Origin: Frondihabitans sucicola
GTDB lineage: Bacteria > Actinomycetota > Actinomycetes > Actinomycetales > Microbacteriaceae
Direction: 5' to 3'
DNA: 64,000 bases
Assembly (NCBI RefSeq): GCF_030296615.1
Contig: NZ_AP027732.1
Span: 2,545,042-2,609,041, forward strand
Under the pieces are notes generated by a model. That model worked only from the letters and a program-made list of their open reading frames with translations, had not been told where the DNA came from and ran no database searches. Numbering within the stretch: the first letter of the stretch is position 1; each line of letters starts with the position of its first letter. Both the position numbers and the translations under genes were made by a program. Shown here piece by piece: positions 4,792-23,797 of this stretch.

Positions 4792-4797
4792 CCACGA

Positions 4798-9649: not shown

Positions 9650-9832
9650 CCTGACGAGGAGGCAGACGCGTCTCCGCGAGATGGAGAACGCTGTTCCGTA
9701 CGTCGCACTGGCGCGATCGCAGCACGTCGCTCAGTTGTCGTTGGCATTTCGTCGCAGCCGGCGATTTGACTCCGCCGCTGTCACCCAAGCGGCGATCCTT
9801 CAAAGCGCATTCTTAGGCGAGGGGCGTCGTTC

Positions 9833-10351
9833 CTAGTTGGTTCCGGTGACGGTGCTGCGGCGTTCGAGGAAGACGTTGTCTCGCCACTGTCCTGCCCACG
9901 GGCCGAAGCTCATCCGCCCAATGCGTTCCCGGATGCCGACCTCTCGGAATCCGTGGGCGGCATGAAGGGCGAGGCTTCCGCGGTTCTCGGGGAAGACCGC
10001 GGATTGAATCATCCAGACTCCCGCTGCTTCGGATGTGGTGATGAATTCCGCCAGGAGCAGGTGGCCAACCCCGGCACCGCGGGCGTTCTTGGAGACATAG
10101 ATGGAGTGCTCGATGACCCCCTGATACACCGGCCGCGACGACACGCTCGACGCGGCCGCCCACCCGACGACGTTGTCCTGCGTGTCCACGGCGACGAGTC
10201 GGAGTCCTCGAATTTTTCCGCCATCGAACTCCTCCCAGGACGGAGGCTTGTCCTGGAAGGTCGCGTTACCCGACGCGATGCCCTCGGCGTAAATCCGTTC
10301 GACGGCAGGCCAGTCGCCCGCCTTCATCGCACGGATCGTCACCTCGGTCAT
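9833..10351 (-). CDS. GNAT family N-acetyltransferase (phosphinothricin acetyltransferase-like)
   Basis: MTEVTIRAMKAGDWPAVERIYAEGIASGNATFQ...RGAGVGHLLL; ATG 10349-10351. Confidence 0.8.
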   Translation of the reverse strand: MTEVTIRAMKAGDWPAVERIYAEGIASGNATFQDKPPSWEEFDGGKIRGLRLVAVDTQDNVVGWAAASSVSSRPVYQGVIEHSIYVSKNARGAGVGHLLLAEFITTSEAAGVWMIQSAVFPENRGSLALHAAHGFREVGIRERIGRMSFGPWAGQWRDNVFLERRSTVTGTN

Positions 10352-10697
10352 GCCGGGTTGAGGGTCCGACTGCTGGCGGTGAGGGCGGCGAAGTCGGCAC
10401 GGTAGTACGCCCATTTGCCGCGCTGTTCGCGGATGGCAAGGCCGGCGTCGACGAGCTGCTTCATGTGATGCGACACCGTGGGCTGCGACAGCCCGACCGG
10501 TGCCGTGAGGTCACAGATGCAGGCTTCCCCGTAGGGCTTGCCGCGATGAGTGACAGGAGCCGCACTCGGGTGGGATCGCCGAGCGCCTTGAACACCTTGG
10601 CGACGTCTTCCGCTGCGGACGCCGTGAGGGCGTCCTCACTGGTCGGGGCGCAGCACGCCGCGTCGGTGGGCGCGAGAAGCGAGGCACTGGTGGTCAT
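10348..10697 (-). CDS. arsR: ArsR/SmtB family metalloregulator (apparent single-base frameshift ~10543)
   Basis: MTTSASLLAPTDAACCAPTSEDALTASAAEDVAKVFKALGDPTRVRLLSLIAA then +1 frame GKPYGEACICDLTAPVGLSQPTVSHHMKQLVDAGLAIREQRGKWAYYRAD; stop overlaps the GNAT start (ATGA). Confidence 0.7.
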
Positions 10698-10721
10698 GGC
10701 CTCATTCTGCCAGTCGCATTG

Positions 10722-10760
10722 ACATCTGTCGATGTATCGAGCACAGTCGATGTATTGATT
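10722..10760. promoter_or_regulatory. repeated 12-13 bp near-palindromes (GTCGATGTATCGA / GTCGATGTATTGA) in the divergent arsR / arsO promoter region; candidate ArsR operator
   Basis: seen directly between starts at 10697 (-) and 10785 (+). Confidence 0.4.
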
Positions 10761-10784
10761 GTTGTCGATCCGAGGAGTTTTCCC

Positions 10785-12101
10785 GTGTCTGATCTTCCCG
10801 TTGTCGTCATCGGCGCCGGCCCGCAGGGCCTTGCCGCTGCCGCCCACCTTCTCGAACGTGGCCTTGACCCCCTGGTACTCGAAGCTGGCGACGGCCCGGC
10901 GGCCGCTGTGAATGAGTGGGGCCACGTCCGGCTGTTTTCGGACTGGTCAGAACTCGTCGACACCACGGCCGGCCGGCTGCTTGAAGGAACCGGATGGACG
11001 GCTCCGGCGAAGGGCTACCCGACCGGAGCGCAGTGGATCAGCCGCTACCTCTCGCCTCTCGCTGAGGCGTTGGGTGACCGGGTGCGGTACGGCACCACCG
11101 TGACTGGTATCGGTCGGCAGGGCCGTGACCGGCTGGTGGATGCGGGCCGAAGCGAGCAGCCCTTCACCGTTCACGTCAACGCCGGCGGGACCGAGGAACG
11201 CATCACCGCTCGTGCTGTCATCGACGCGTCGGGAACCTGGTCGACCCCGAACCCGCTGGGCGCCGACGGTCTCCCCGCCCTCGGCGAGAAGGCAGCGGCC
11301 GCGTTCATCTCCGATCGCATCCCTGACTTCCACGACCATGACCGGTTCGCCGGCAAACACACGGTCGTCGTGGGCAGTGGGCACTCCGCGGCGACCGCGA
11401 TCAACGAACTCACCCGCGTCGCCAAACAGCACCCCGATACCCGCATCACATGGGTCCTTCGTCGAGGTGGCGTTGGGAACACATTCGGTGGCGGCACGGC
11501 CGACGAGCTGCCCGAGCGCGGAGCCCTCGGCGCTCGTGCGCAGAAGTCCGTCGAGGCGGGGATCGTGGATCTCGTCACCGGGTTCCGCGTCGAACGAATC
11601 AACACCACCGACACCGGCGCCGTCCTCATCTCCGAAGACGGACGCGCCCTGCCCGAGGCAGACCTCGTCGTCGCCCTGACCGGGTTCCGACCCGACCTGT
11701 CGTTCCTGTCGGAGGTGCGCCTCGAGCTGGATGCCACGTTGCAGGCACCCATCCGAATCGCGGCGGAGGTCGACCCCAACGTACATAGCTGCGGGTCCGT
11801 CCGAGCCACCGGAGCTGCGGACCTGGCACAACCGGAACAGGATTTCTACCTCGTCGGCGCGAAGTCCTACGGCCGCGCGCCCACGTTCCTGGCGATGACC
11901 GGATACGAGCAGATCCGCAGCGTCGTCGCGGAACTGGCCGGCGACCACGAGGCCGCCGCCCGCATCGACCTCATCCTCCCTGACACCGGCGTGTGTGGCG
12001 GGGCAGGGTTGTTCGACGACCCCACCGGCGCCAGAGGCGGCGCCTGCTGCGCCCCTGCATCGACACTTCTGCAGATCGGCCGTGCCCCCGTCACCGCTTG
12101 A
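10785..12101 (+). CDS. FAD/NAD(P)-binding oxidoreductase (ArsO-like flavin monooxygenase family found in actinobacterial ars clusters)
   Basis: GTG start 8 nt after a GAGGAG RBS; VVVIGAGPQGLAAAAHLLERG dinucleotide-binding motif, second GxGxxA (VVVGSGHSAATAI). Confidence 0.65.
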   Translation: MSDLPVVVIGAGPQGLAAAAHLLERGLDPLVLEAGDGPAAAVNEWGHVRLFSDWSELVDTTAGRLLEGTGWTAPAKGYPTGAQWISRYLSPLAEALGDRVRYGTTVTGIGRQGRDRLVDAGRSEQPFTVHVNAGGTEERITARAVIDASGTWSTPNPLGADGLPALGEKAAAAFISDRIPDFHDHDRFAGKHTVVVGSGHSAATAINELTRVAKQHPDTRITWVLRRGGVGNTFGGGTADELPERGALGARAQKSVEAGIVDLVTGFRVERINTTDTGAVLISEDGRALPEADLVVALTGFRPDLSFLSEVRLELDATLQAPIRIAAEVDPNVHSCGSVRATGAADLAQPEQDFYLVGAKSYGRAPTFLAMTGYEQIRSVVAELAGDHEAAARIDLILPDTGVCGGAGLFDDPTGARGGACCAPASTLLQIGRAPVTA

Positions 12102-12116
12102 GCGAACCAGTCGCCG

Positions 12117-12791
12117 CTAGGCGGGGGCGAGACGGGGCGCAAGTTCCTGGATGCGGTGTTCGAGGTCCGTGAAAGCGGCCTCGAATGCCGCATCCGTGCC
12201 CAGACGGACAGGGTCGGGGATCGACCAGTGCAGCCCGGACGGGACGGAGAGTTCCTCATGGGCGTTGTCGCAGACCGTGACCACGAAGTCATCCGGCGCG
12301 AGAACGTCAGAGAGCATTTGCGGGGTGGCCTCTTGCAGGTTCAGGTGGTGCCGCTTCGCTGCCCGGATAGCGCCCGGTTCGACGCGCTCGGCGGGGTGAG
12401 TTCCCCCGGATGCGGCAGGGATACTGCTGGCGCTGGCCCACAGCGCTGCGGCGAGCTGTGACCGGGCGGAGTTCCCGGTGCAAACGAACACAACCCGGTG
12501 GCCGGCGACCGAGGATGTCGGAGTCAGCCCCGACAAGGAACCTGGGGCGAGGTGGAGATAGCTGCGCCTGCGGTCGCCCTCTGACCGGACCCGAACCAGA
12601 ATGCCCACGCCTTCCAGCACCTTCAGGTGATGCGCCACGAGGTTCGAGGGCATGCCGAGCTGCTGGCTCATGTCGGTCGGGGAGACATCCCCAAGGGTTA
12701 ACAGGTCGACGATCCGTAGGCGTGCCGGATCGGCCAGGGCGGCATGTTTCGCAGCCCGCGCCTCGATCATCTCTGTTAGCTCAGCGTTCAT
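12117..12791 (-). CDS. arsC: ArsR HTH fused to LMW-PTP-type arsenate reductase (ArsR-ArsC fusion)
   Basis: N-terminus RLRIVDLLTLGDVSPTDMSQQLGMPSNLVAHHLKVLEGVGIL (ArsR HTH); C-terminus VVFVCTGNSARSQLAAALW (CX5R P-loop of LMW phosphatase/ArsC). Confidence 0.8.
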   Translation of the reverse strand: MNAELTEMIEARAAKHAALADPARLRIVDLLTLGDVSPTDMSQQLGMPSNLVAHHLKVLEGVGILVRVRSEGDRRRSYLHLAPGSLSGLTPTSSVAGHRVVFVCTGNSARSQLAAALWASASSIPAASGGTHPAERVEPGAIRAAKRHHLNLQEATPQMLSDVLAPDDFVVTVCDNAHEELSVPSGLHWSIPDPVRLGTDAAFEAAFTDLEHRIQELAPRLAPA

Positions 12792-12831
12792 TACCTCAAT
12801 CTTGACTGAGGTACCGTCTTGGCGTCAAGAT

Positions 12832-13587
12832 GTGCAAGTGCCCTTCTTGACCCCGATCCCACGCACCGATCTCCTGCGCCGCCTGCTGGCGGAGCTGCTC
12901 GGGACGGCTCTTCTGGTGACGGTCGTTGTCGGTTCGGGGATCATGGCCCAGCAGCTCAGCCCGCGCGACGTCGGGCTGCAACTGCTGGAGAACAGCCTCG
13001 CTACCGCTTTCGGCCTGACGGTTCTGATCCTGATGCTCGGTCCGATCTCGGGGGCGCACTTCAACCCGGTGGTCACGCTGGCGGACTGGGCTCTTGGCCG
13101 TCGCACCCGCACCGGGCTCCGTTCAGCGATGGTCCTTCCCTACGTTGTCGCGCAGGTCGTTGGGGCGATCCTCGGAGCAGTCCTGGCGAACACCATGTTC
13201 GACACCCGCACGACCATCGCAACCACGCACCGCGCCACTGGCGGGCATCTCCTCGGGGAGATCGTCGCCACGGCAGGGCTGATCCTGGTGATCTTTGCCC
13301 TCGCACGCACCGGCCGCGGGGCCCTGGCTGCTCCTGCGGTCGGGGCGTACATCGGGGCGGCGTATTGGTTCACCAGCTCGACTTCGTTCGCGAACCCTGC
13401 CGTGACCATCGGCCGGATCTTCACCGACACCTTCGCCGGCATCGCCCCCACCTCCGCCCCCGCCTTCATCGGCGTCCAGCTGGTGGGAGCCGCGGTCGGC
13501 TGTGCCCTGCTTCTCGTTCTCTATCCCGACGTCGCCCGGTCCGCCGACGACGTCGTCATCCCGCACCTCGACCAGGCGTCCGCCTGA
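12832..13587 (+). CDS. aquaporin/aquaglyceroporin (MIP family) arsenite channel
   Basis: two NPA boxes (SGAHFNPVVT and SFANPAVT); six TM helices; GTG start after the divergent arsRC start. Confidence 0.8.
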   Translation: MQVPFLTPIPRTDLLRRLLAELLGTALLVTVVVGSGIMAQQLSPRDVGLQLLENSLATAFGLTVLILMLGPISGAHFNPVVTLADWALGRRTRTGLRSAMVLPYVVAQVVGAILGAVLANTMFDTRTTIATTHRATGGHLLGEIVATAGLILVIFALARTGRGALAAPAVGAYIGAAYWFTSSTSFANPAVTIGRIFTDTFAGIAPTSAPAFIGVQLVGAAVGCALLLVLYPDVARSADDVVIPHLDQASA

Positions 13588-13608
13588 CCCGCCCCGAAAG
13601 GCCCTCTC

Positions 13609-14991
13609 ATGCATCTCGTTGCCATCGGCGGATCGGACGCCGGCATCTCCGCCGCCCTCCGCGCCCGCGAACTCGACCCGTCCGTAGACGTGACCGTGGT
13701 CGTCGCGGACGCTTACCCGAACTTCTCCATCTGCGGGATTCCGTACTTCTTCTCCCGCGAAGTGCAGCCCTGGCAGTCCCTCGCTCACCGCACCCATGCC
13801 GACCTCGAAGCGACCGGGATGAACCTCCGGTTGGAGACGTTCGCGACGTCGATCGACGTCGTAGGTCACCGCCTCGCCGTCCGCGCCCTCGACGGCACCG
13901 GATCCCTCATCGCCTACGACGCCCTCATGGTCGGCACCGGGGCGCTGCCCTCCCGCGCCGGCATCGACGGCCTCGACATCCTGGGGCCGGACGACGGGGT
14001 GCACGTCATCCACTCCATGGGCGACACCTTCGCCCTCGACCGGTTCCTCGAGACCCGGAACCCTGAGACCGCGATCATCGTCGGCGCCGGCTACGTGGGC
14101 CTTGAAATGGCGGAAGCGTTCACCGTCCGCGGCATCAAGACGACCCAGATTCAGCGCGGTCCGGAAGTGCTCTCCACCCTCGACCCCGAACTCGGCGCCC
14201 TCGTTCACACTGAACTCACCGACCACGGCGTCACCGTCCTCACGGACACCATCGTGAACCGCATCGACAAAACCGGCGACAGCCTCACCGTCAGCGCCAC
14301 CCACCAGGGCACCCCCGTCACCCACACGGCCGACGTTGTCCTGGTTGTCGTCGGGGTCCGCCCGAACACGGACCTCCTCGAGCGCGCCGGCGCGACGCTT
14401 GGTGCTGGCCGGGCGGTCGTCGTCGACGACACGATGCGGACGGGTCTTCCCGACGTGTTCGCGGCCGGTGACGGGGTCACCACCCACCACCGCCTCCTCG
14501 GCTTGACGTATCTCCCTCTCGGGACGACGGCTCACAAGCAGGGCCGCGTCGCCGGCGAGAACGCCCTCGGTGGCACCGCCCGGTTCGCGGGATCCGTCGG
14601 CACTCAGGTCGTGAAAGTGTTCGACCTCGTCGCCTCCCGGACCGGCCTTCGCGAACACGAAGCCGCCGCTGCCGGGTTCGCCCCCGTCAGCACGACCGCG
14701 ATCGCGGATGACCACAAGAAGTACTACCCGGGCGCGCAACCGATCTCGATCCGCGTCACCGGCGACAGCCGCGACGGCAAACTCCTCGGCGCTCAGCTCG
14801 TCGGCCGTCTTGGCACCGAGACCGCCAAACGCGTCGACACGTACGCCGTCGCCTTGCACGCCGGCCTCACCGTGGAGCAGGTCAGCGAACTCGACCTCTC
14901 CTACACACCACCGCTCGGTTCCCCGTGGGACGCGGTGCAGATCGCCACCCAGGCATGGTCCCGCGAGCACCGCCAGGCGGTGACCGCATGA
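13609..14991 (+). CDS. FAD-dependent pyridine nucleotide-disulfide oxidoreductase (NADH oxidase / CoA-disulfide reductase-like)
   Basis: MHLVAIGGSDAGISAAL...IIVGAGYVGLEMAEAF...AAGDGV; 460 aa two-Rossmann architecture. Confidence 0.75.
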   Translation: MHLVAIGGSDAGISAALRARELDPSVDVTVVVADAYPNFSICGIPYFFSREVQPWQSLAHRTHADLEATGMNLRLETFATSIDVVGHRLAVRALDGTGSLIAYDALMVGTGALPSRAGIDGLDILGPDDGVHVIHSMGDTFALDRFLETRNPETAIIVGAGYVGLEMAEAFTVRGIKTTQIQRGPEVLSTLDPELGALVHTELTDHGVTVLTDTIVNRIDKTGDSLTVSATHQGTPVTHTADVVLVVVGVRPNTDLLERAGATLGAGRAVVVDDTMRTGLPDVFAAGDGVTTHHRLLGLTYLPLGTTAHKQGRVAGENALGGTARFAGSVGTQVVKVFDLVASRTGLREHEAAAAGFAPVSTTAIADDHKKYYPGAQPISIRVTGDSRDGKLLGAQLVGRLGTETAKRVDTYAVALHAGLTVEQVSELDLSYTPPLGSPWDAVQIATQAWSREHRQAVTA

Positions 14992-15380
14992 CCGACAAGC
15001 CCACCGTCTTGTTCATCTGCCAGCACAACGCCGGCCGCTCCCAACTCGGCGCAGCCCTCCTCGAACACCTCGCCGGAAACGACTACACGGTCACCTCAGC
15101 GGGGATCGCGCCCGACAAGACAGTGAACCCGGCCGTCGCGGCGAGTATCGCGGAGCTGGGGATGGACATCAGCCAGCGGGAACCGCGGGCCGTCACCGTC
15201 ACCGACCTCCAAGAGGCCGACGTCGTCGTCCTCATGAAGCCTGGCCTAGTCTTGCCGAGCACGCCCGCGGGACGGGTGTTGGAGTGGTCCTTCCCGAATC
15301 CGGAGAACTGGGACGTGGACTCCGTCCGGCCCTTGAGGGAAGCGGTCGCGGCGCGCATCACCTCCGACCTGTTCGCCTGA
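14988..15380 (+). CDS. arsC: arsenate reductase, LMW protein-tyrosine-phosphatase family
   Basis: MTDKPTVLFICQHNAGRSQLGAALLE (CX5R); ATGA overlap with the upstream gene. Confidence 0.8.
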   Translation: MTDKPTVLFICQHNAGRSQLGAALLEHLAGNDYTVTSAGIAPDKTVNPAVAASIAELGMDISQREPRAVTVTDLQEADVVVLMKPGLVLPSTPAGRVLEWSFPNPENWDVDSVRPLREAVAARITSDLFA

Positions 15381-15400
15381 CGCTATGACCTGGAGGGGAG

Positions 15401-16069
15401 CTAGTCGTCCTCTTCCGCTTCGCGTTCACCGGTCAGCACGGATACGGGAACGGTGCAGCTGTCGCCCTTCCATGCCTCGACGCCTTCTTTGACGGCGAAG
15501 CCGACGACGACGAGGGCTGCGATGGGGTCGGCCCAGGTCCACCCGAACAAGCTGTTGAGCAGGAGCCCGACGAGGACCGCCGCGGACAGGTAGGCGCAGA
15601 TGAGGGTCTGTTTGGAGTCGGCGATCGCGGACGCCGATCCCAGTTCTCGTCCGGTGCGGCGTTCGGCAAGGCTCAGGGCAGGCATGATCAGCAAGCTGAT
15701 GACGGTGAGGACGATGCCGATGGGGCTGTGCTCGGCCTGACGGACGCCTGTTAGCGACAGGGCGGCGTCGATGGTGACGTAGATCGCGAGAGCAAAGAAC
15801 GAAATTGCGATGACGCGGAGGGCGGTCCGCTCCCTGGCCTCGGGATCGCGGGCGGTGAATTGCCAGGCGATTGCCGCGGCGGAGAGGACTTCGACGATGG
15901 AATCTAGGCCGAAGCCGACGAGGGCTGCGGAGGAGGCCATGGTACCGGCGGTGATCGCGACGACCGCCTCGATGGCGTTGTAGGTGATGGTCGCCGCGAC
16001 GATCAGCCGTATCCGGCGGCGTAAGATCCGGGTACGAGGCGGGACAGCGAGGGCTTCGGTGCTGGTCAT
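15401..16069 (-). CDS. cation diffusion facilitator-like membrane protein (short form lacking the cytoplasmic domain)
   Basis: TM protein with LVGFGLDSIVEV, ADSKQT, WADPIAALVV motifs typical of the CDF TM core; ATG overlaps the upstream CDF stop. Confidence 0.6.
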   Translation of the reverse strand: MTSTEALAVPPRTRILRRRIRLIVAATITYNAIEAVVAITAGTMASSAALVGFGLDSIVEVLSAAAIAWQFTARDPEARERTALRVIAISFFALAIYVTIDAALSLTGVRQAEHSPIGIVLTVISLLIMPALSLAERRTGRELGSASAIADSKQTLICAYLSAAVLVGLLLNSLFGWTWADPIAALVVVGFAVKEGVEAWKGDSCTVPVSVLTGEREAEEDD

Positions 16070-16998
16070 GCGTGGTCCGTTCCGGGTTCGTGGGCGGTGT
16101 GGCCGGCGGGTTCGAGTTGGAAGGTGCTGTGCTCGACGTCGAAATGGCCGACCAGGCACGCTTGCAGTTCGTCGAGGACTCGGGGTGCGTGGCCGTCCTG
16201 GAAGCACTCGTCCGTCAGGGTCACGTGCGCTGACAGGGCGGGGAGGTCCGAGGTGACGGTCCACGCGTGGAGGTCGTGGATTGCGAGAACGTGGGCGGGT
16301 TCGAGTAGGTGCCCTCGGATGGCGTCAAGGTCCACACCTTCTGGGGTGCCCTCGAGGAGGATGCGGCCGGAGTCTTTCAGCAGCCCCCACGCCGCATGCA
16401 GCATCAAGACCACAACGATCAGGGAGGCGATGGAGTCGGCGCGGGTGAAGCCGGTGACGAGGATGACGATCCCGGCGACGACGGTGGCGATGAACCCATA
16501 CAGGTCGGTGAGGATGTGCTGGAAGGACCCTTCGACGTTCAGGCTCTGACGGTTGGCTTTCGCTAGCACCCACACGGCGACGAGGTTCACGGCCACTCCG
16601 AGGAGCGCGACGACGAGGACCGGGCCGCCTTCGACCTCGGGTGGGTCGAGGAGGCGTCGGATGGCTTCGACGGCGACGATGCCACTGATGACGACGAGGG
16701 TGACGCCATTCACCGCGGCGGAGAGGATCTCGGCGCGCTTCAGCCCGAATGTCCACCTTGAGCTGCTGGGGCGGGCAGCGAGTCGGATCGCGACGAGCGA
16801 CCCGGCGAGGGCGGCGGCGTCGGTGAGCATGTGACCGGCGTCCGAGAGCAGTGCCAGCGAGCCGGAGATGATGGCGACGATGACCTCGATGAGGAGGAAA
16901 CCGACGATCAGGGCCAGGGCGATGCTGAGGAGCCGGGTGTTCGCGTCGGGGGCGGCCCCGTGGCTGTGTGCTTTGTCGTGCTGGTGGGTGTCGGTCAC
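16066..16998 (-). CDS. cation diffusion facilitator (CDF) family metal efflux transporter (CzcD/ZitB-like)
   Basis: His-rich N-terminus THQHDKAHSHG, LLSDAGHMLTDAAALAGSL, C-terminal cytoplasmic domain; GTG start overlaps the regulator stop (GTGA). Confidence 0.8.
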   Translation of the reverse strand: MTDTHQHDKAHSHGAAPDANTRLLSIALALIVGFLLIEVIVAIISGSLALLSDAGHMLTDAAALAGSLVAIRLAARPSSSRWTFGLKRAEILSAAVNGVTLVVISGIVAVEAIRRLLDPPEVEGGPVLVVALLGVAVNLVAVWVLAKANRQSLNVEGSFQHILTDLYGFIATVVAGIVILVTGFTRADSIASLIVVVLMLHAAWGLLKDSGRILLEGTPEGVDLDAIRGHLLEPAHVLAIHDLHAWTVTSDLPALSAHVTLTDECFQDGHAPRVLDELQACLVGHFDVEHSTFQLEPAGHTAHEPGTDHA

Positions 16999-17400
16999 TG
17001 GTCGGTTCCGGTGGTCTCGGGGTGGATCGCGACCGTGTGACCGGTGTGGGTGAGCCCGAGGTCGAGGAGCATCCGGACGTGGCCGTCGTCGAGGCGGTAG
17101 TACGCCATCCGCCCACGACGTGCGACCGACACCACCCGGTGCGCCCGAAGGAGCCGGAGTGCGTGACTGACAGAGCTTTCGCTCATCGCCGTTGTCGCCG
17201 CGAGATCGCACACACATCTCACCGCCTTCGAGAAGAGACATCAGAAGGCGAAGCCGGCCTGGGTCGCCGAGAAGAGAGAACACGTCCGCCAGCTCGACGA
17301 CGTCTTCCGCGTCGGGCAGGCTGCGTCGAACCAGGTCGACCTTGTCCGGGTCGACCATCTTCAGCTCGCAACTATCGATGCTCGCCAGATCGCTCGCCAT
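16995..17400 (-). CDS. ArsR/SmtB family metalloregulator (NmtR/KmtR/CzrA-like) with a 2-bp frameshift inside a (TG)n run at ~17213
   Basis: DVFSLLGDPGRLRLLMSLLEGGEMCV then CDLAATTAMSESSVSHALRLLRAHRVVSVARRGRMAYYRLDDGHVRMLLDLGLTHTGHTVAIHPETTG; restoring TG in ATGTGTGTG(TG)CGAT joins the frames. Confidence 0.7.
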
Positions 17401-17533
17401 GCCGACTCCTCATCTGATCACTTGTTCAGATGACCGTAACAGGCCGACGAGCCCTAGTCACGCAGCCGCCCCTTGCAGGTCAGTCTGAATTCATGTCACA
17501 ATGGTCCTGCGCTTTTAGCGCGTGAAAAACAGC

Positions 17534-17560
17534 CGGCCCTTGGGTCGGTTTTTTTGTGCC
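17534..17560 (+). terminator. intrinsic-terminator-like hairpin plus U7 (CCGGCCC-UUG-GGUCGG-UUUUUUU) with no protein gene upstream on this strand
   Basis: seen directly; 7-bp stem with one G.U pair then T7. Confidence 0.4.
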
Positions 17561-17726
17561 CGAAAACGGTCGCCTCTTTGCGCCATCGGTCAGCACACCC
17601 ACCGCGAGGCCACCGCACCGGCGGCACCTCGCTGTTCTCGCCCGCGAGAAACATCAGCCTCGGACCCGCACGCCGCGAGGTTCGTGAGCCGACCCCTGGG
17701 TCGGCAGCATCAACGGTGGAGGTTCC

Positions 17727-17900
17727 ATGCTCCAGCTGTCGATTGAGATCCCTGCTGCCGCGGGCTACGCAATCGGATTCGCCGTCGCAACAGGCATCAT
17801 CGCGACCGCCATCCGTACCGCGTGGCCCGTGCTGAACGACAAGGCTGCACGCCGCGTCGCTCGCATGCACCGGGCGAAAGCCGCTCGCAAGAGCGACTAG
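17727..17900 (+). CDS. small hydrophobic protein (57 aa), hypothetical
   Basis: GGAGG 6 nt upstream of ATG; MLQLSIEIPAAAGYAIGFAVATGIIATAIRTAWPVLNDKAARRVARMHRAKAARKSD (one TM helix + basic tail); below the ORF-track size cutoff. Confidence 0.35.
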   Translation: MLQLSIEIPAAAGYAIGFAVATGIIATAIRTAWPVLNDKAARRVARMHRAKAARKSD

Positions 17901-18070
17901 CTCAAAAAACGCACCCCTCCATCGTTAAGGAGAGCTCTGTCTTCAGGTGTGCAACAAACGACCGTCCACGAGACAGTCACGCAGAGCTGCTCAAGAGTCG
18001 GCGCGTCATGTCCCATGGCCCGTGTCCGCGACCTATGTTCCGTAAGACACGTTCGAGGTACAGTTCTGCC

Positions 18071-18637
18071 ATGGCATCCGTCGGCTACGCCCGCGTCTCC
18101 ACCCAAGAGCAGAACCTCGACGCACAAACGGACGCCCTCGAGGCGGCCGCCTGCGACAAGGTGTTCGTCGAGCATGCCTCCGGGGTTCTCGCGAAACGGC
18201 CCGCCCTGGATGATGCCCTCGACTACCTCCGCGAAGGCGACACTCTAGTCGTCACGAAACTCGACCGACTCGGCCGCTCCGTCCGGAACCTGAAAGAGAT
18301 CGCTAACGGACTCGAGCGCCGCGGCGTTGGCCTCAGAGCCCTGTCGCAGGGCATCGACACGACCACCCCCGGCGGCCGGCTGTTCTTCCACATGCTCGCG
18401 GCCATTGCGGAGTTCGAGCACGACCTCATCGTCGAACGCACGAAGGACGGTTTAGCTGCCGCCCGAGCCCGCGGCCGAAAAGGCGGCGGGCGTTCAAAGA
18501 TGACCGCCACGAAAGCCAAGCAGGCCCGAGCGATGTACGACGAGAAGACCTATACCGTCCAGCAGATTGCTGACACCTTCGGCGTCTCACGCGGCACCAT
18601 CTACCGGCACCTCGAAGAAGACATCAGCTCCATTTAG
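18071..18637 (+). CDS. serine recombinase (resolvase/invertase, Hin/Gin/Pin family)
   Basis: MASVGYARVSTQEQNLDAQTDALE... catalytic Ser in YARVST; C-terminal HTH YTVQQIADTFGVSRGTIYRHL. Confidence 0.85.
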   Translation: MASVGYARVSTQEQNLDAQTDALEAAACDKVFVEHASGVLAKRPALDDALDYLREGDTLVVTKLDRLGRSVRNLKEIANGLERRGVGLRALSQGIDTTTPGGRLFFHMLAAIAEFEHDLIVERTKDGLAAARARGRKGGGRSKMTATKAKQARAMYDEKTYTVQQIADTFGVSRGTIYRHLEEDISSI

Positions 18638-18715
18638 CCCGAGGACCGCTCCACATCACGAGCGTCCGCGAAGGCCTTAAGTGGGTTCCGCTTGAGTGCC
18701 CTAGTGGGTCCGAGA

Positions 18716-18772
18716 CACTTTGACATAGTCGTCTTTCGCTTCACGTTCACCCGTCAGCACGGACACAGGTCC
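18716..18772 (-). pseudogene. 3'-terminal remnant (~17 codons) of a paralogue of the short CDF gene 15401-16069
   Basis: translates MPLGPVSVLTGEREAKDDY..., matching the ...CTVPVSVLTGEREAEEDD end of 15401-16069; nucleotide similarity to 15404-15460; upstream part replaced by lower-GC DNA. Confidence 0.5.
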
Positions 18773-18864
18773 AAGCGGCATGAAAAACACACATCGAGAG
18801 ACAAGCGGGAACCGGCCAATCGACGTGGCAATCCTGCGGGCTATCCATATCTGGACTTACGACA

Positions 18865-19974
18865 TCAAAACGACCAAGGATCCAGGCGCGTGATGGCGAG
18901 TACGGCGGAGTCATCCGCATTGCCCACGAAGCCTCCACCCACCGATATTTCCCCTTGCCATGCAATTGTCGCGCCGACGCGGCACTTTTCAATTTCCGGA
19001 AGGCGGAGGCGAGTTCTGTCGAAAAGAAGTTCGCCGTCATCGTCGGTCGCCGCTTCGCGGATAGTTCGGTCACCCATGTCGAAGATGAAATTGTGATTCT
19101 CAGTTTGCACGTGCCAGAGACCTTGGTCGTTGTCGCGCAACTCAACGATCTGCTGCCCGATGTGGACGACGTCAGTGATTTCCGAAGGACTTTGACTCAA
19201 GGGAAATAGCTCTCCGACGCCCTGGGCCAAGAATGCAAGGCTGTCAAAGATATCGACCGCAATCATCAACGCGCTGCCGGAGTGAGTCTCGATGCTGATT
19301 TGATCTCCTCGACTGGCAACGTCGGCGACCAGGTCGGTGAATTGGCCAGAAGCGTCGTGGACGGAAATCGATCGTCGCGCAGGGAACTGTCCCGATGGCG
19401 TCACGTCGGCCTCACTCTCCGATGTGAGGGAGCTTCTCTCGTCGAGACGGTAGATCCCCGTGACGGCTGATCTAGAGGATCTCTGCGTCACTTCCCCTAT
19501 CCGGGCAGTAGACCAGGTCGCCACGGCTCCGACGCTGACCTCGACAATGGCGCCGAAGCCTTCACGTCCCATTGGGGTTCCACCACTTCCCGTCCGCTGG
19601 CCATAGAGCTGCCGGGCATCCATGTCGAAGATGAACAACTCGTCAGAGGTTCCGACCTTCCACGTGCCGGAGTCGGAATCGTAGAGATCTGTGATGGAGT
19701 CCCAGCGCGAGGTGTGCATGCCCGCATCGACGCGCTGGATATCGGGCTGGTTGAGAGCGACCAGCTCGGTGACGAGCGGGATCCAGGGTGCGAGATAGCT
19801 GGACGGGAGGAGAACGGCTCCGCCCCATCGTGACGTCGCCAAGATGGGTTCGCATCGGGAGATCACCGACGCGAGCACGCGCTCCAGGCCCTGCTGTATG
19901 TCGACTGCGGGTCTCGTCAGCACAATCGCCTCCCTGTGAGTCGGGAGATGGTCGTCCGCGAACCTCGTTGCCAC
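18865..19974 (-). CDS. hypothetical protein with two internal repeats (hFIFDMxxR motifs)
   Basis: 369 aa; LYDSDSGTWKVGTSDELFIFDMDARQLYG and NDQGLWHVQTENHNFIFDMGDRTIREA; last gene of a translationally coupled operon; low GC. Confidence 0.45.
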   Translation of the reverse strand: MATRFADDHLPTHREAIVLTRPAVDIQQGLERVLASVISRCEPILATSRWGGAVLLPSSYLAPWIPLVTELVALNQPDIQRVDAGMHTSRWDSITDLYDSDSGTWKVGTSDELFIFDMDARQLYGQRTGSGGTPMGREGFGAIVEVSVGAVATWSTARIGEVTQRSSRSAVTGIYRLDERSSLTSESEADVTPSGQFPARRSISVHDASGQFTDLVADVASRGDQISIETHSGSALMIAVDIFDSLAFLAQGVGELFPLSQSPSEITDVVHIGQQIVELRDNDQGLWHVQTENHNFIFDMGDRTIREAATDDDGELLFDRTRLRLPEIEKCRVGATIAWQGEISVGGGFVGNADDSAVLAITRLDPWSF

Positions 19975-19975
19975 C

Positions 19976-20773
19976 TCATCCCCACCTCCAGTGGAGCGTT
20001 TCTAGTTCAAGAACGCCGATATTTCCCGGTCGTTCATCGGGCGCCATGGAATAGACGCGACGGCCGTCTTCGAGGGTTGCTTCGGCTCGGCTGTGGATGT
20101 GGCCGTGGAACAGGATGCCAGGGTGGATGGCATTCCACAGGTCTGTTGTTCGGGAGCGCGAGATGGCGGACGCCCAGAGTCGGTCCGCTGGCCATCTGCC
20201 GGGGTTCCGTCCTTCCTCGATGCCTGCCGTCGCTTCGGTGGCGCCGTTGACGGCCTCGTGAGTGAGCATGATGTCTGCCGGGCCCGATAGAGCGGCCTCC
20301 GCGTACGCTTCTTTGCGGGCGACCTCGTCTGGCCACCAATCGCGGTTTTTTCCGTGAGCATTTCGCCGGTGCCGATCTACCGACGCCGCTCCCCCGAACG
20401 ACATGAACGTGCGCCCTCCGATCACGAAACGGTATCCGTGTGGCAGGACCCAGATGTGCTGACCGATCCGAACGGGCTCTCGTCGCACCCATGCAGGTGT
20501 GCTTCTAAGGCGGCCATAGTCTTCATGGTTTCCGGGGGTAATGAGAACTTGCTCGATCCCATTGCCGCGGCACCGGGCGTCGACCATGTTCACGAAAGCC
20601 TTGGCGACGCGACCTCGCCCGATGTTGAAATCGCCCAATTGCAAGATCGTCTTCGCCCCTGGCGCCATCTGTGCGGCGCGAGGGATGACCTTCATGGCCC
20701 AGATGATGTTGCTGTGCCAATCTCCCGCCACGACCACGCGCGGATCCGCCGCGTCGGGAACCCACGCGGTCAT
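19976..20773 (-). CDS. calcineurin-like metallophosphoesterase
   Basis: VVVAGDWHSN, GDFN, ITPGNHE, FHGHIH motifs; stop overlaps the upstream gene. Confidence 0.75.
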   Translation of the reverse strand: MTAWVPDAADPRVVVAGDWHSNIIWAMKVIPRAAQMAPGAKTILQLGDFNIGRGRVAKAFVNMVDARCRGNGIEQVLITPGNHEDYGRLRSTPAWVRREPVRIGQHIWVLPHGYRFVIGGRTFMSFGGAASVDRHRRNAHGKNRDWWPDEVARKEAYAEAALSGPADIMLTHEAVNGATEATAGIEEGRNPGRWPADRLWASAISRSRTTDLWNAIHPGILFHGHIHSRAEATLEDGRRVYSMAPDERPGNIGVLELETLHWRWG

Positions 20774-21432
20774 ACCCCGGATCGATCGGCAATAGTGCGT
20801 TGAAGATCGTTCAATGCATTTAGAACGGGTTGCATGTCGCCTCCACTGCTGAGCCAACCGACGGGAGTGGCCGCCGCATGTCGGCGCAGCGTGGGTTGAG
20901 CGTCGTACATGAAGTCGCCGAGGTCATGGATTCGTTTGGCGTCTTCAAGATCGTGCAGGCCCTGGAGGCTGTTGAGCAGGCCGGTATGGGTCGAAGAGTC
21001 GATTTGCCAGGCGGGAATGAGCACGAGGTTTCCCACAAAGAATGCTGACAAAAGGCCACTGGCCAGCCACGCATCGACCTGTTGAAGAGGGATGTTTAGG
21101 TATGAGGCGAGGCTTTGCGGGACGAACGCGGACGCGATGTTGAGAATGAGGCTTCCCGCCAGCTCTACATGAAGTTGCCCACTCCGGGCGGCTTCCTCAG
21201 CGTCCGAGAGTTGCGTGCTCGTGACAATCCCGGAGTCCACGAGGAAAGAACGAACGTCCTCGGTGAGCATCGACGCGCCCGGACCAGGCGCGCTCCTAAG
21301 GGCACTATTGACCGCCGCCCATCCCGTTTCGGAGTCGACGTCCCCCGAGTGCAGGAGGGCGTGCAGCCCCTGAGAGTCTCGTCGGAGGGACGCGTCCGCT
21401 TCCAGGCGAGCCTCAGTAGGTCGGTCAGTCAC
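20770..21432 (-). CDS. hypothetical protein with two predicted TM helices
   Basis: 221 aa; GTG start overlapping the stop of 21425-21976; hydrophobic stretch LAGSLILNIASAFVPQSLASYLNIPLQQVDAWLASGLLSAFFVGNLVLIPAW. Confidence 0.4.
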   Translation of the reverse strand: MTDRPTEARLEADASLRRDSQGLHALLHSGDVDSETGWAAVNSALRSAPGPGASMLTEDVRSFLVDSGIVTSTQLSDAEEAARSGQLHVELAGSLILNIASAFVPQSLASYLNIPLQQVDAWLASGLLSAFFVGNLVLIPAWQIDSSTHTGLLNSLQGLHDLEDAKRIHDLGDFMYDAQPTLRRHAAATPVGWLSSGGDMQPVLNALNDLQRTIADRSGV

Positions 21433-21976
21433 GAGCGGCCTCAAGGGCGGAGAACAGACTGTCCTCCGCTCCTCCGACGTGGGCCCACTCGATGGCATTT
21501 AGAGCGAGATTCATCTTCAGAGCGCGTTGAGGGGTCGTCATGAATGCGCTCAGGAGTCGCCAGTCCATTCCGTCGGCACTTGAAAGGATTTGTTCCAGGC
21601 CCGGCAGGAGGTCGCGGGGACTCTCCTCTGTGAATTGCCAAAGCGGAACCCGCTGCTCCCCGTCCACGAGGACCGCCAGAAGACGGCCGGCAGCGATCAG
21701 CCCTCTGACCTCGCCTTGGGGAATCGTCAGGAGCGTGGCTGCTCGCGAAACACTGGTCGTCAAGATCGGCTCCCGCGCGTAGCTCGTCGCACAGAAGCTC
21801 TCGGCAGCTTCGGGCAACGGCCAGTCGCCAGACCGTTGCGGCGTCCTCGATGCACGAATAGACCCGCGCACTCCATCGGCGAGTCCCCTGAGAAATCCGG
21901 CCCGCCCGATTGAAAGCGTGTCAGCGAAGGCGAGGACTTGCTGGAAAGAGGCAGATACGAAGACGGCGGAATCCAT
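21425..21976 (-). CDS. excisionase-type (HTH_17/MerR-like) DNA-binding protein with C-terminal domain (possibly Xre/MbcA/ParS antitoxin-like)
   Basis: ATLLTIPQGEVRGLIAAGRLLAVLVDGEQRVPLWQF helix-turn-helix; C-terminal ~80 aa PQRALKMNLALNAIEWAHVGGAEDSLF. Confidence 0.45.
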   Translation of the reverse strand: MDSAVFVSASFQQVLAFADTLSIGRAGFLRGLADGVRGSIRASRTPQRSGDWPLPEAAESFCATSYAREPILTTSVSRAATLLTIPQGEVRGLIAAGRLLAVLVDGEQRVPLWQFTEESPRDLLPGLEQILSSADGMDWRLLSAFMTTPQRALKMNLALNAIEWAHVGGAEDSLFSALEAARD

Positions 21977-22148
21977 GGGACAGCTTTCGAGTGAGGCGAC
22001 CCCAAGCCGGGTCGTCGCGTGGAGCGAGCTGGCCGGTTGACCTGCTCACTTTCCTCTCGTGCTGCGTCCCTCACAGCGGTGTTGCGTCCGAACCTGACGG
22101 AGTGCGCTCCGCCCGGAAAGGATTGAATGTGGCCGGCGCTGACGTCGG

Positions 22149-22847
22149 TCATGCCATGTTCCAAATTTCGAAGAGGCGCTCCGATGAACCCTCCAGGTAG
22201 CGGAGCAGCGTTGCGGCGACCGGTCGAGCGGAACCTCCGCTGAGCAGAAAATCCCGAGGCGACAAGTGATCTTTGCCACGCCGCGGAAGAGTCGGATCAT
22301 CGAGCGTCATGATGGCTCTCGTGAATGCAGCGGGAATTTCCGGAGGTATCGCCGCGACGATCATCTCCATCTGCTGGGTTATGACCTTCGCGCTGCGGCC
22401 ATCGCTTGTAAATTCGAACTGCCACGACGGCAACAGGTACCGATCTGCGGCCCTGATCGCATGGAGCCTGCCCCACTCAATGTCGTCGAGTACGACACGC
22501 GTCGAACACCCCAGCAAGGACGCCACCTCGTTGGGAGTGAGTGACATGCCGACGTCGAGAAACGACATCCTCGCCAAGATCTCTCGGATGTCGTCGGCTT
22601 CTAGGTGACCATTGAGTCGAGATGGCCGCTCTTCCATGGTCAGCCGCTCCAGTAGCAGCAGGTGGTGCGCTTTTTTCAGCCCAAGCGAGTTGACACTGAG
22701 CGCCTCGAGGATCGAGCTGAGGTCGTTGACGGTGTCCACGGGATCGATGCCGAAGGCCTTGAGTGACATTTCTAGACGGCCGGCCGCGCTGGACCACGTA
22801 CGGAGGTCAGATCCCTGAGCCGACTGCGAGCCCGCTGACGATGCCAT
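22149..22847 (-). CDS. excisionase-type HTH protein, paralogous architecture to 21425-21976 (N-terminal extension + HTH + DUF2384-like C-terminus)
   Basis: SLTPNEVASLLGCSTRVVLDDIEWGRLHAIRAADRYLLPSWQF; C-terminal TLDDPTLPRRGKDHLSPRDFLLSGGSARPVAATLLRYLEG. Confidence 0.45.
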   Translation of the reverse strand: MASSAGSQSAQGSDLRTWSSAAGRLEMSLKAFGIDPVDTVNDLSSILEALSVNSLGLKKAHHLLLLERLTMEERPSRLNGHLEADDIREILARMSFLDVGMSLTPNEVASLLGCSTRVVLDDIEWGRLHAIRAADRYLLPSWQFEFTSDGRSAKVITQQMEMIVAAIPPEIPAAFTRAIMTLDDPTLPRRGKDHLSPRDFLLSGGSARPVAATLLRYLEGSSERLFEIWNMA

Positions 22848-22861
22848 GCCATCAAATTAGT

Positions 22862-22877
22862 ACACTTTTGTGTACTG
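22862..22877. promoter_or_regulatory. perfect 16-bp palindrome GTACACTTTTGTGTAC in the divergent promoter region (candidate XRE operator)
   Basis: seen directly, 14 bp downstream of the start of the (-) gene at 22847 and 66 bp upstream of the xre ATG. Confidence 0.5.
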
Positions 22878-22942
22878 TGCCATGGCTAGAGTTGCGGAAG
22901 TCTTGGACGGTGCCAAATTCTGGATCTGAGAACTTCGAGGCC

Positions 22943-23149
22943 ATGCGTTCTGCCCTGGAAAGGCTTCGGCACGAGCGGGGATTTAGCTTCGAGCGTTTGC
23001 GCGACGAATCGGGTGTCTCTCGGACAGCCATTATCAAGTTGGAACAGGGGCGATCCACGGGCAGCCTGAGGACATGGTGCAAAATTTCGAATGCCTTGGG
23101 AGTTCCCTTCTGGCAACTAGCTAAGTACCTGGACGAGCCAATCGGGTGA
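22943..23149 (+). CDS. XRE-family HTH transcriptional regulator (68 aa)
   Basis: MRSALERLRHERGFSFERLRDESGVSRTAIIKLEQGRSTGSLRTWCKISNALGVPFWQLAKYL. Confidence 0.6.
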   Translation: MRSALERLRHERGFSFERLRDESGVSRTAIIKLEQGRSTGSLRTWCKISNALGVPFWQLAKYLDEPIG

Positions 23150-23738: not shown

Positions 23739-23797
23739 GCCTGGCTTTTTGTTGTCCTGGTCGTTGAGCGCGACTCCCTGAATTAGATGCAACTCCC
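23739..23797. repeat. right terminal inverted repeat of the element
   Basis: reverse complement matches 4635-4693. Confidence 0.7.

What the first reader, a model, noticed from the sequence alone, without database searches (positions are those of the whole stretch)
15401..17400. NmtR/KmtR-like regulator plus two-CDF efflux operon; regulator interrupted by a 2-bp deletion in a (TG)n microsatellite
The three genes are coupled by GTGA/ATGA overlaps. The regulator has the alpha3 C-V-C-D site and a His-rich C-terminal tail (HTGHTVAIHPETTG) typical of Ni/Co sensors. The only frameshift in the window that is not a single-base homopolymer event is here: ATGTGTGTGCGAT should read ATGTGTGTGTGCGAT to give EMCVCDL. 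This could be a genuine slipped-strand mutation (and a potential phase-variable switch derepressing the efflux genes) rather than a sequencing error.
Basis: partly seen in the sequence, partly recalled or inferred. Interest (0 to 1): 0.5.

Follow-up and report, generated by a model that had tools for sequence, protein, structure and literature searches.

The report
Metal-efflux repressor gene with 2-bp gap
An ordinary metal-sensing repressor gene, sitting in front of two metal-export genes, is broken by a missing "TG" in a short TG run, and this is more likely a sequencing or assembly error than a genetic switch, because the same stretch of genome has at least ten other small deletion errors.

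Summary
On the minus strand, an ArsR/SmtB-family regulator (17400..16995), a full-length CDF exporter (16998..16066) and a short CDF (16069..15401) are joined by GTGA and ATGA overlaps. The regulator is out of frame at A(TG)4C (17216..17209). Adding one TG restores EMCVCDL, which all 24 aligned orthologues carry. The nearest relative (90% nt identity) reads A(TG)5C, and this is the only indel across the 2-kb operon.

- **Family.** The protein is not specifically NmtR/KmtR-like. It combines a CadC-like N-terminal Cys and alpha3 CVC with a CzrA-like alpha5 DxHx10Hx2H site, so a Zn/Cd(/Co) sensor is likelier.
- **TG tract.** Only 1 of 85 orthologous loci has (TG)5, so it is a by-product of the Met-Cys-Val-Cys codons, not a contingency tract.
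- **Assembly quality.** The window (Frondihabitans sucicola chromosome) carries at least 10 single-base deletions in G/C runs that break conserved genes, and G/C runs of 6 or more are almost absent. That is the signature of an indel-prone long-read consensus.
- **Caveat.** The same 63-aa fragment is annotated in a second, plasmid-borne copy of the island, so a genuine null allele remains possible.

Estimated odds: about 60% artefact, 30% real fixed mutation, 5% or less phase switch. Interest is low.

The parts
16995..17400 (-). ArsR/SmtB-family metalloregulator gene, out of frame as deposited. With the TG restored it encodes 135 aa.
   Evidence: The repaired protein hits Pfam HTH_5 (1.8e-12) and NCBIfam HTH_metalloreg (5e-24, above cutoff). 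It is 95% identical to the intact orthologue P0001. GenBank annotates only a 63-aa C-terminal fragment, BDZ50512.
17208..17217 (-). A(TG)4C tract inside the codons for Met-Cys-Val-Cys of the alpha3 metal site, and the site of the 2-bp shortfall.
   Evidence: Shown. L001 has A(TG)5C at this position, and this is the only indel in the operon alignment.
17411..17432 (-). Candidate operator: the imperfect inverted repeat CATCTGAACA-AG-TGATCAGATG. It lies just upstream of the ribosome-binding site GAGGAG (17411..17406).
   Evidence: A related 20-mer (5 or fewer mismatches) lies upstream of the regulator, 182-249 nt before its CVC codons (mostly 182-212), in 65 of 86 orthologous loci. By my own rough calculation fewer than 1 is expected by chance. 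It is also conserved in the alignment. Repressor binding is inferred, not tested.
17433..17460 (-). Possible promoter: TGACTA, 16 nt, then TACGGT.
   Evidence: By eye only. The sigma-70 consensus scan found nothing in this region. This is a weak inference.
16066..16998 (-). CDF1, a 310-aa cation diffusion facilitator with a C-terminal dimerisation domain and a GTG start that overlaps the regulator's stop codon.
   Evidence: Pfam Cation_efflux 3e-41 plus ZT_dimer. TIGR01297 scores 241 bits; the ZitB equivalog is below its cutoff. The HxxxD motifs in TM2 and TM5 were read directly from the translation. The sequence matches BDZ50511/BDZ52584 exactly.
15401..16069 (-). CDF2, a 222-aa CDF-like membrane domain with no cytoplasmic C-terminal domain and an ATGA overlap with CDF1.
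   Evidence: Pfam Cation_efflux 7.5e-15. Overlap confirmed. A CDF2 homologue follows CDF1 in 11 of 86 loci.
16066..17400 (-). A 444-aa open frame created by the shortfall: 64 aa of regulator, 71 aa of out-of-frame linker, then all of CDF1.
   Evidence: Listed by the ORF listing. It is a consequence of the GTGA overlap plus the -2 shift. It is not on record as an annotated protein.

Best explanation
This is an ordinary, autoregulated metal-efflux operon of Actinomycetota. An ArsR/SmtB-family repressor with two conserved metal sites binds an inverted-repeat operator just upstream of its own ribosome-binding site. One site is an N-arm Cys plus the alpha3 Cys-Val-Cys, as in CadC. The other is an alpha5 Asp/His site, as in CzrA. 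When Zn/Cd (possibly Co) binds, the repressor releases the DNA and two translationally coupled CDF exporters are expressed. The apparent 2-bp deletion in the regulator is most likely a consensus error of an indel-prone, probably long-read, assembly that under-calls low-complexity runs. On this reading the true sequence is A(TG)5C and the gene is intact. What is shown: the family, the gene architecture, the conserved ligand residues, the conserved operator-like repeat, the regulator-CDF linkage, and the density of errors in the window. What is inferred: the metal specificity, the repression mechanism, and that this particular indel is an error.
For: **The operon.**
- Of 86 orthologous regulators, 78 are followed by a CDF1 homologue on the same strand.
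- The operator-like repeat is present in 65 of 86 loci, against fewer than 1 expected by chance by my rough calculation.
- C63, C65, D106, H108, H119, H122 and E129 are invariant. C11 and H127 are nearly so.
- The N-arm aligns with CadC and the alpha5 region aligns with CzrA.

**The artefact reading.**
- In the same 64 kb, conserved genes are split across two frames with continuous Pfam profile coordinates. They are a response regulator (26786-26796), a sugar transferase (55288-55299), a DEAD/DSHCT (HelY-like) helicase (37010-37076), a WYL/WCX protein (40403-40413), a Pyr_redox_2 (NDH-2-like) enzyme (52163-52172), a Band_7 protein (31421-30), an SDR (two breaks, near 2865 and 3050), Lnt (33923-33) and a second ArsR (10523-33).
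- Every junction that could be resolved is repaired by adding one base to a G/C run. All are contractions, as is the TG event.
- G/C runs number 1561, 376, 77, 2 and 0 for lengths 3, 4, 5, 6 and 7 or more. That is a collapse at 6 or more.
- No dinucleotide run in the window exceeds 4 units. A (TG)5 here would be the longest.
- The two copies of the island in this assembly differ by homopolymer lengths, C4 against C5 near 6625 and G3 against G2 near 8960. This shows that indel calls in this assembly are unreliable.
- Nanopore reads underestimate dinucleotide tracts longer than 4-6 nt (PMC8486125).
Against: - This is the only 2-bp event. Every other resolved frameshift is a 1-nt homopolymer error.
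- GenBank annotates the identical 63-aa C-terminal fragment for both the chromosomal copy (BDZ50512) and the plasmid copy (BDZ52583). At least two homopolymer errors are specific to one copy. An error shared by both copies needs either a strongly context-specific miscall or a pooled set of reads, whereas a real mutation carried by a duplicated mobile island explains it directly.
- The sequencing platform of this assembly is not known to me.
- No reads, and no independent assembly of this strain, could be obtained.
Confidence: 0.6

Rival explanations
1. The deletion is a genuine, fixed slipped-strand mutation. On this reading the repressor is a null allele: it loses part of alpha3, the recognition helix, the wing and the alpha5 dimer interface. 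The operon is then constitutively derepressed. The mutation arose before the roughly 19-kb mobile island was copied between plasmid and chromosome, so both copies carry it.
For: - The same 63-aa fragment is annotated in both copies.
- The island is bounded by 63-nt inverted repeats and carries recombinases, so duplication by transposition is plausible.
- Two homopolymer errors are copy-specific, which argues that the two consensus sequences were partly independent.
- A contraction of (TG)5 to (TG)4 is the classical product of replication slippage.
- The CDF genes downstream are intact.
Against: - The assembly demonstrably contracts low-complexity runs about once per 5-6 kb.
- The second ArsR frameshift, at a G run, is probably also shared by both copies. 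The intact 116-aa product is not in the protein collection, so sharing does not prove authenticity.
- No (TG)4 allele was found elsewhere.
Confidence: 0.3
2. The TG tract is a contingency locus. Reversible switching between (TG)4 and (TG)5 turns the repressor off and on, giving a subpopulation with constitutive metal efflux.
For: The only support is that the indel lies in a dinucleotide repeat and that restoring one unit restores the frame. From my own knowledge, Actinomycetota lack MutS/MutL, and reversible frameshifts in short runs are documented for M. tuberculosis glpK. That point was not tested here.
Against: - The tract is 4-5 units, far below the tract lengths of known dinucleotide phase-variation loci (my own knowledge).
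- Only 1 of 85 orthologous loci has (TG)5, one has (TG)4 in frame, and 73 have (TG)2, so there is no selection to keep the repeat.
- The repeat follows from the codons of the conserved M-C-V-C motif.
- No length polymorphism was seen in metagenomes.
Confidence: 0.05
3. The frameshift is functional in another way. Either the 444-aa regulator-CDF1 fusion frame, or a restart at GTG 17222 that gives a 75-aa C-terminal protein, is the real product.
For: The fusion frame is open from 17400 to 16066, and a GTG precedes the CVC codons.
Against: - Long open alternative frames are expected at 67% GC.
- The 71-aa linker is out-of-frame sequence with no homologues.
- All 86 related loci encode separate, intact genes.
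- A 75-aa fragment would lack helices alpha1 and alpha2.
Confidence: 0.02

Closest known systems
CzrA-CzrB of Staphylococcus aureus (ArsR/SmtB alpha5 Zn/Co sensor that controls a CDF exporter)
   Same: - A regulator gene lies directly upstream of a CDF gene.
- The alpha5 motif D-x-H-x10-H-x2-H aligns column for column.
- An inverted-repeat operator of the TGAACA...TTCAGA type lies in front of the operon. Its resemblance to the czr operator is from memory.
   Different: - The protein here also has an N-terminal arm with a conserved Cys and an alpha3 C-V-C, which the CzrA chains matched lack over the aligned region.
- It has a conserved extra H127-x-E129 tail.
- A second, truncated CDF gene follows.
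- Whole-protein similarity is modest (4e-12).
CadC (S. aureus pI258) and the SmtB/ZiaR group (alpha3N plus alpha5 dual-site Cd/Pb/Zn sensors)
   Same: - These are the best whole-protein matches among solved structures: SmtB 1e-18, CadC 2e-15.
- The CadC alignment starts at the N-arm, with DTCEI aligned to DSCEL, and includes ELCVCD.
- Both metal-site motifs are present.
   Different: - CadC controls a P-type ATPase, not a CDF (my own knowledge).
- Only one N-arm Cys is conserved here, where CadC has two (my own knowledge).
- No NCBIfam equivalog is reached, only the generic subfamily model.
   Same: - Same family.
- NmtR shares the four alpha5 ligand positions and has extra C-terminal His ligands. 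KmtR regulates a CDF gene. Both points are from my own knowledge.
- A conserved His/Glu tail exists here.
   Different: - NmtR is a weaker match than SmtB, CadC or CzrA.
- The tail spacing here is H122-x4-H127-x-E129. NmtR, as I recall it, has H107-x-H109-x6-H116.
- NmtR has no alpha3 Cys pair (my own knowledge).
- KmtR could not be compared, because no sequence was available to the tools.
Simple-sequence contingency loci (for example, reversible homopolymer frameshifts in M. tuberculosis glpK)
   Same: A frameshift in a short repeat inside a coding sequence that could in principle revert.
   Different: The tract is very short, is not conserved, and shows no polymorphism. It also lies in an assembly full of run-length errors.

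Membership tests
ArsR/SmtB metalloregulators | A winged helix-turn-helix of the ArsR type, scoring above the curated family cutoff. | tested here: met
   For the repaired protein, Pfam HTH_5 scores 47 bits (cutoff 22) and NCBIfam NF033788 scores 84 bits (cutoff 55).
ArsR/SmtB metalloregulators | An intact reading frame through alpha3, the recognition helix, the wing and alpha5. | tested here: not met
   As deposited, the frame breaks after residue 64, in alpha3. It is met only after adding TG.
alpha5 (CzrA/SmtB-type) Zn/Co site | D-x-H-x10-H-x2-H(E) in the C-terminal helix. | tested here: met
   D106, H108, H119 and H122 are invariant in 24 orthologues. They align to CzrA LDDIHVATMLKQAIHHANH.
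alpha3N (CadC/AztR/ZiaR-type) thiolate site | C-x-C in alpha3 plus Cys in an N-terminal arm. | tested here: met
   C63 and C65 are invariant. C11 is conserved in at least 90% of sequences. The N-arm aligns with that of CadC.
NmtR-type alpha5C Ni/Co sensors | The alpha5 ligands plus the two extra C-terminal His at NmtR spacing (or N-terminal His ligands), and closest similarity to NmtR. | tested here: not met
   NmtR ranks below SmtB, CadC and CzrA. The tail spacing differs, with the NmtR spacing taken from memory. Metal preference itself cannot be tested in silico.
KmtR-type Ni/Co sensors | The KmtR ligand set (His/Glu cluster). | not testable with these tools
   There is no KmtR sequence or model in the libraries searched, and no NCBIfam hit names it.
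Cation diffusion facilitators (CDF1) | A six-TM Cation_efflux domain plus a cytoplasmic ZT_dimer domain, and HxxxD/HxxxD at the TM2/TM5 site. | tested here: met
   Pfam 3e-41 and 1e-7. TIGR01297 scores 241 bits (cutoff 82). The motifs HMLTD and HILTD were read in the translation. The ZitB and DmeF equivalogs are below cutoff, so the substrate is not assigned.
Cation diffusion facilitators (CDF2) | The same domains as above. | tested here: inconclusive
   Cation_efflux scores 55.7 bits (cutoff 26.6), but TIGR01297 scores 45 bits, below its cutoff of 82, and there is no C-terminal domain.
Phase-variable contingency loci | A repeat tract long enough for high slippage rates. | tested here: not met
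   The tract has 4 units, or 5 if restored. The threshold comes from general knowledge.
Phase-variable contingency loci | The repeat is maintained across related strains or species, or length polymorphism is observed. | tested here: not met
   Only 1 of 85 loci has (TG)5, and 73 have (TG)2. The single metagenome hit is in frame with (TG)3.
Phase-variable contingency loci | Both ON and OFF alleles occur within one population. | not testable with these tools
   This needs the reads or cultures.

The most novel reading that the evidence does not exclude
The (TG)4 allele is real and sits in both copies of a roughly 19-kb mobile metal-resistance island. It acts as a reversible off-switch for the repressor in a bacterium that lacks MutS/MutL, producing constitutively metal-exporting cells. 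This would be a dinucleotide slippage switch embedded in the codons of the metal-binding Cys-Val-Cys motif itself.
Probability: 0.04. Interest if true: 0.45.

Novelty: already known. Interest (0 to 1): 0.12.

Why it matters
As it stands, the finding matters mainly for quality control. The deposited Frondihabitans sucicola chromosome contains roughly one run-length indel per 5-6 kb, so frameshifted genes in it, including this regulator, should not be read as biology without read-level confirmation.

If the allele were real, it would be an unremarkable loss-of-function of a metal-sensing repressor that gives constitutive CDF expression. Only a demonstrated reversible switch would be of moderate interest.

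The operon itself is a repressor with both alpha3N and alpha5 sites, a CDF and a truncated CDF, with a conserved operator. It is a widespread architecture that is uncharacterised in this clade, and nothing in it departs from known ArsR/SmtB-CDF systems.

Tried and rejected
1. **Independent copies of the sequence.**
   - An exact 27-mer across the tract found nothing in genome contigs.
   - Exact-product look-ups of CDF1, CDF2, the fusion frame and the neighbouring oxidoreductase found no encoding contig. One of these, the CDF2 query, carried an extra leading codon (my error).
   - PLSDB does not hold the F. sucicola plasmid.
   - As a result, the DNA of the plasmid copy could not be read. Only its annotated proteins were available.
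2. **Recurrent frameshift alleles.** A gapped pattern allowing 3-5 bases between ATGTG and GCGAY was run on metagenome contigs. It gave one hit, which was in frame.
3. **Is the second ArsR frameshift shared by the plasmid copy?** Neither the intact protein nor the fragments are on record. A homologue search shows no F. sucicola entry. This suggests the frameshift is shared, but it is not proof, because the start codon is uncertain and the collection is clustered at 90% identity.
4. **Apparent frame change near 10381.** I rejected this as a frameshift. It is an ordinary ATGA overlap between the second ArsR and a GNAT gene.
5. **Promoter.** The sigma-70 scan found none. The -35/-10 I list is by eye only.
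6. **RNA elements.** Rfam and tRNA scans found nothing near the operon.
7. **Literature.** A search for the strain or assembly gave no description of the sequencing method.
8. **Programmed frameshifting or a functional fusion.** I considered both and set them aside for lack of any support.
Full report
**What is in the sequence.** On the minus strand of 15401-17400 there are three co-directional genes.
- **Regulator.** It begins at ATG 17400. In that frame it reads MASDL...LLEGGEMCV and then continues out of frame. A second frame, offset by +1, reads (V)RCVCDLAATTAMSESSVSHALRLL...HTGHTVAIHPETTGTDQ and stops at TGA 16997..16995.
- **CDF1.** It starts at GTG 16998..16996, giving a GTGA overlap, and ends at 16066.
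- **CDF2.** It starts at ATG 16069..16067, giving an ATGA overlap, and ends at 15401.
- **The break.** It lies in A(TG)4C at 17217..17208.

Pfam and NCBIfam assign the repaired regulator to the ArsR/SmtB metalloregulators. CDF1 is assigned to the cation diffusion facilitators, with both a membrane domain and a ZT_dimer domain. CDF2 matches the membrane domain only.

- A search with the repaired 135-aa protein returned more than 2,500 homologues, the best at 95% identity and all of normal length.
- In an alignment of 24 of them, the motif E-[M/L]-C-V-C-D-L is present with exactly the spacing obtained by adding two bases. A one-base removal would lose a residue that every orthologue has.
- The nearest DNA relative is a 3.5-kb SRA contig, L001, about 90% identical. 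It reads GAGATGTGTGTGTGCGAT, which is A(TG)5C.
- In a global alignment from the promoter to the end of CDF2, the TG pair is the only internal indel.

**What the operon is.**
- The regulator-CDF pairing is conserved. Of 86 loci across Actinomycetota that encode an orthologous regulator, 78 have a CDF1 homologue immediately downstream on the same strand. Eleven also have CDF2.
- The inverted repeat CATCTGAACA-AG-TGATCAGATG lies at 17432..17411, directly upstream of the ribosome-binding site. A related 20-mer lies upstream of the regulator in 65 of 86 loci, at a nearly constant distance from its CVC codons. By my own rough calculation, fewer than one would be expected by chance. I take this to be the operator. 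Binding was not tested.
- C63, C65, D106, H108, H119, H122 and E129 are invariant in the alignment. C11 and H127 are nearly invariant.
- Against solved structures, the whole protein is closest to SmtB (1e-18) and CadC (2e-15). The CadC alignment starts in the N-terminal arm and includes its Cys.
- The C-terminal half is closest to CzrA. The D-x-H-x10-H-x2-H motif aligns column for column. NmtR is a weaker match in both searches.
- CDF1 carries HxxxD in TM2 (HMLTD) and in TM5 (HILTD), together with a His-rich N-terminus. From general knowledge this is the Zn/Cd/Co-type site. The ZitB and DmeF equivalog models are below their cutoffs.

The best reading is therefore a dual-site (alpha3N plus alpha5) Zn/Cd(/Co) sensor that represses its own operon and is released by metal. 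The NmtR/KmtR label is not supported, although the conserved H127-x-E129 tail leaves the exact metal preference open.

**Is the missing TG real?** This is the crux, and it cannot be settled without reads. The context weighs against it.

Exact protein look-ups identify the window as the Frondihabitans sucicola chromosome (4,230,729 bp; proteins BDZ50498 to BDZ50552).

A codon-position scan, followed by Pfam scans of adjacent frame segments, showed that many conserved genes in this 64 kb are split across two frames while their profile coordinates stay continuous:

| Gene | Profile evidence | Position of break |
|---|---|---|
| Response regulator | Response_reg, then GerE | 26786-96 |
| Sugar transferase | Bac_transf 1-115, then 120-178 | 55288-99 |
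| DEAD/DSHCT (HelY-like) helicase | DEAD, then Helicase_C + DSHCT | 37010-37076 |
| WYL/WCX protein | WYL, then WCX | 40403-13 |
| NDH-2-like enzyme | Pyr_redox_2 15-106, then 128-291 | 52163-72 |
| Band_7 protein | N-terminus, then profile 23-175 | 31421-30 |
| SDR | Two breaks | near 2865 and 3050 |
| Lnt | CN_hydrolase cut at 197/256 | 33923-33 |
| Second ArsR | HTH_5 cut | 10523-33 |

- Every junction I could resolve is repaired by adding one base to a G or C run of 2 to 5. All are contractions. The helicase break could not be placed.
- G/C runs of length 3, 4, 5, 6 and 7 or more number 1561, 376, 77, 2 and 0. That is a collapse at 6 or more, and it is not seen for A/T runs.
- This is the signature of an uncorrected long-read-type consensus, not of a genome with genuine pseudogenes in core functions.
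- The TG event is also a contraction of a low-complexity tract. Restored, it would be the longest dinucleotide tract in the window, since none exceeds four units.
- Nanopore reads are reported to underestimate dinucleotide tracts longer than 4-6 nt (PMC8486125). Long-read length calls at AC/TG repeats are error-prone in general (PMC11878640).

**Evidence pointing the other way.**
- The operon lies in a roughly 19-kb island with lower GC content. The island is bounded by 63-nt inverted repeats (4635-4697 and 23736-23798) and carries tyrosine and serine recombinases.
- The same island genes occur on the 449,692-bp plasmid of this assembly. The chromosomal and plasmid proteins are identical for the oxidoreductase, the ArsR-LMWPc fusion, ArsC, CDF1, the invertase and a 369-aa hypothetical protein.
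- In both copies the regulator is annotated only as the same 63-aa C-terminal fragment (BDZ50512 and BDZ52583). The plasmid copy is therefore also disrupted.
- The two copies also differ by homopolymer lengths. The chromosome has C4 where the plasmid product requires C5 (about 6625-6635). The plasmid product requires G2 where the chromosome has G3 (about 8960).
- Consensus errors are therefore at least partly independent between the copies, and a shared defect is somewhat more easily explained by a real mutation that predates the duplication.
- Against this, the homopolymer frameshift in the second ArsR is probably shared too, because no intact product is on record. Reads that fall wholly inside a 19-kb repeat would also feed both consensus sequences.

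I put the odds at roughly 60% artefact, 30% real fixed null allele, and 5% or less for anything more exotic.

**Phase variation.** This is unlikely even if the allele is real.
- Among 85 orthologous loci with the motif, one has (TG)5 and one has (TG)4 in frame. Three have (TG)3, 73 have (TG)2 and seven have a single TG, because the first Cys codon is almost always TGC.
- The tract is thus an accident of codon choice for the conserved Met-Cys-Val-Cys. It is not a maintained repeat.
- A pattern search of metagenome contigs that would have accepted shortened alleles returned a single hit, which was in frame.

**Consequences if the allele is real.** The truncated product would lose part of alpha3, the recognition helix, the wing and alpha5. 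It could neither dimerise nor bind DNA, so the operon would be constitutively expressed.

Because CDF1 starts in the -1 frame through the GTGA overlap, the 2-bp loss also places the regulator's first 64 codons in frame with CDF1. This creates a 444-aa open frame. Nothing suggests that this frame is used.

**Verdict.** The family label needs correcting: the regulator is a CadC/CzrA-like dual-site sensor, not NmtR/KmtR-like. The switch hypothesis is improbable, and the frameshift is more likely than not an assembly error. The operon is a routine member of a known kind, so interest is low.

Noticed in passing
window 2861-2870, 3048-3058, 10523-10533, 26786-26796, 31421-31430, 33923-33933, 37010-37076, 40403-40413, 52163-52172, 55288-55299; probably also 59415-59425: There are at least ten single-base deletions in G/C runs that split conserved genes across two frames. 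The genes are an SDR (two breaks), a second ArsR, a response regulator, a Band_7 protein, Lnt, a DEAD/DSHCT (HelY-like) helicase, a WYL/WCX protein, an NDH-2-like enzyme and a sugar transferase. This is roughly one indel per 5-6 kb, so the assembly should be treated as unpolished.
   Followed up: yes
whole window: G/C homopolymers of length 3, 4, 5, 6 and 7 or more number 1561, 376, 77, 2 and 0. The near-absence of runs of 6 or more, with no such drop for A/T runs, points to systematic under-calling of run length.
   Followed up: partly
window 4635-23798: A roughly 19.2-kb island with lower GC (60-65% against 69%) is bounded by 63-nt inverted repeats (4635-4697 and 23736-23798, 90% complementary). 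It carries two Phage_integrase-family recombinases (4798-5934 and about 6587-7744), a serine invertase (18071-18637), arsenic genes and the CDF operon. Its genes are duplicated on the 449,692-bp plasmid of the same assembly.
   Followed up: partly
window about 6625-6635 and about 8955-8965: The chromosomal and plasmid copies of the island differ in homopolymer length. The chromosome has C4 where the plasmid protein P0142 (386 aa) needs C5. The plasmid protein P0140 (294 aa) implies G2 where the chromosome has G3 (402-aa product). Each copy therefore carries its own indel errors or differences.
   Followed up: yes
window about 10348-10695, minus strand: A second ArsR-family regulator, of the arsenic type with A-C-I-C-D-L, is frameshifted at a G4 run (10523-10533) just before its own Cys-x-Cys motif. 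A GNAT gene follows it through an ATGA overlap. Two ArsR-type repressors in one island are thus both broken next to the alpha3 site. This is probably a coincidence of run-rich codons.
   Followed up: partly
window 12120-12791, minus strand: A 224-aa protein fuses an ArsR-type HTH (HTH_20/HTH_5) to a low-molecular-weight phosphatase or ArsC-like domain (LMWPc). It is identical in the chromosomal and plasmid copies.
   Followed up: no
window 15401-16069, minus strand, and loci L001-L003, L007-L013: The short CDF (222 aa) has no cytoplasmic C-terminal domain and has D-x3-E in TM2. It follows the full-length CDF in 11 of 86 related loci. Its role, whether as a partner subunit or an independent transporter, is unknown.
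   Followed up: partly
window 50032-50116, plus strand: A tRNA-Leu (GAG) gene, the only RNA gene detected in the window.
   Followed up: no
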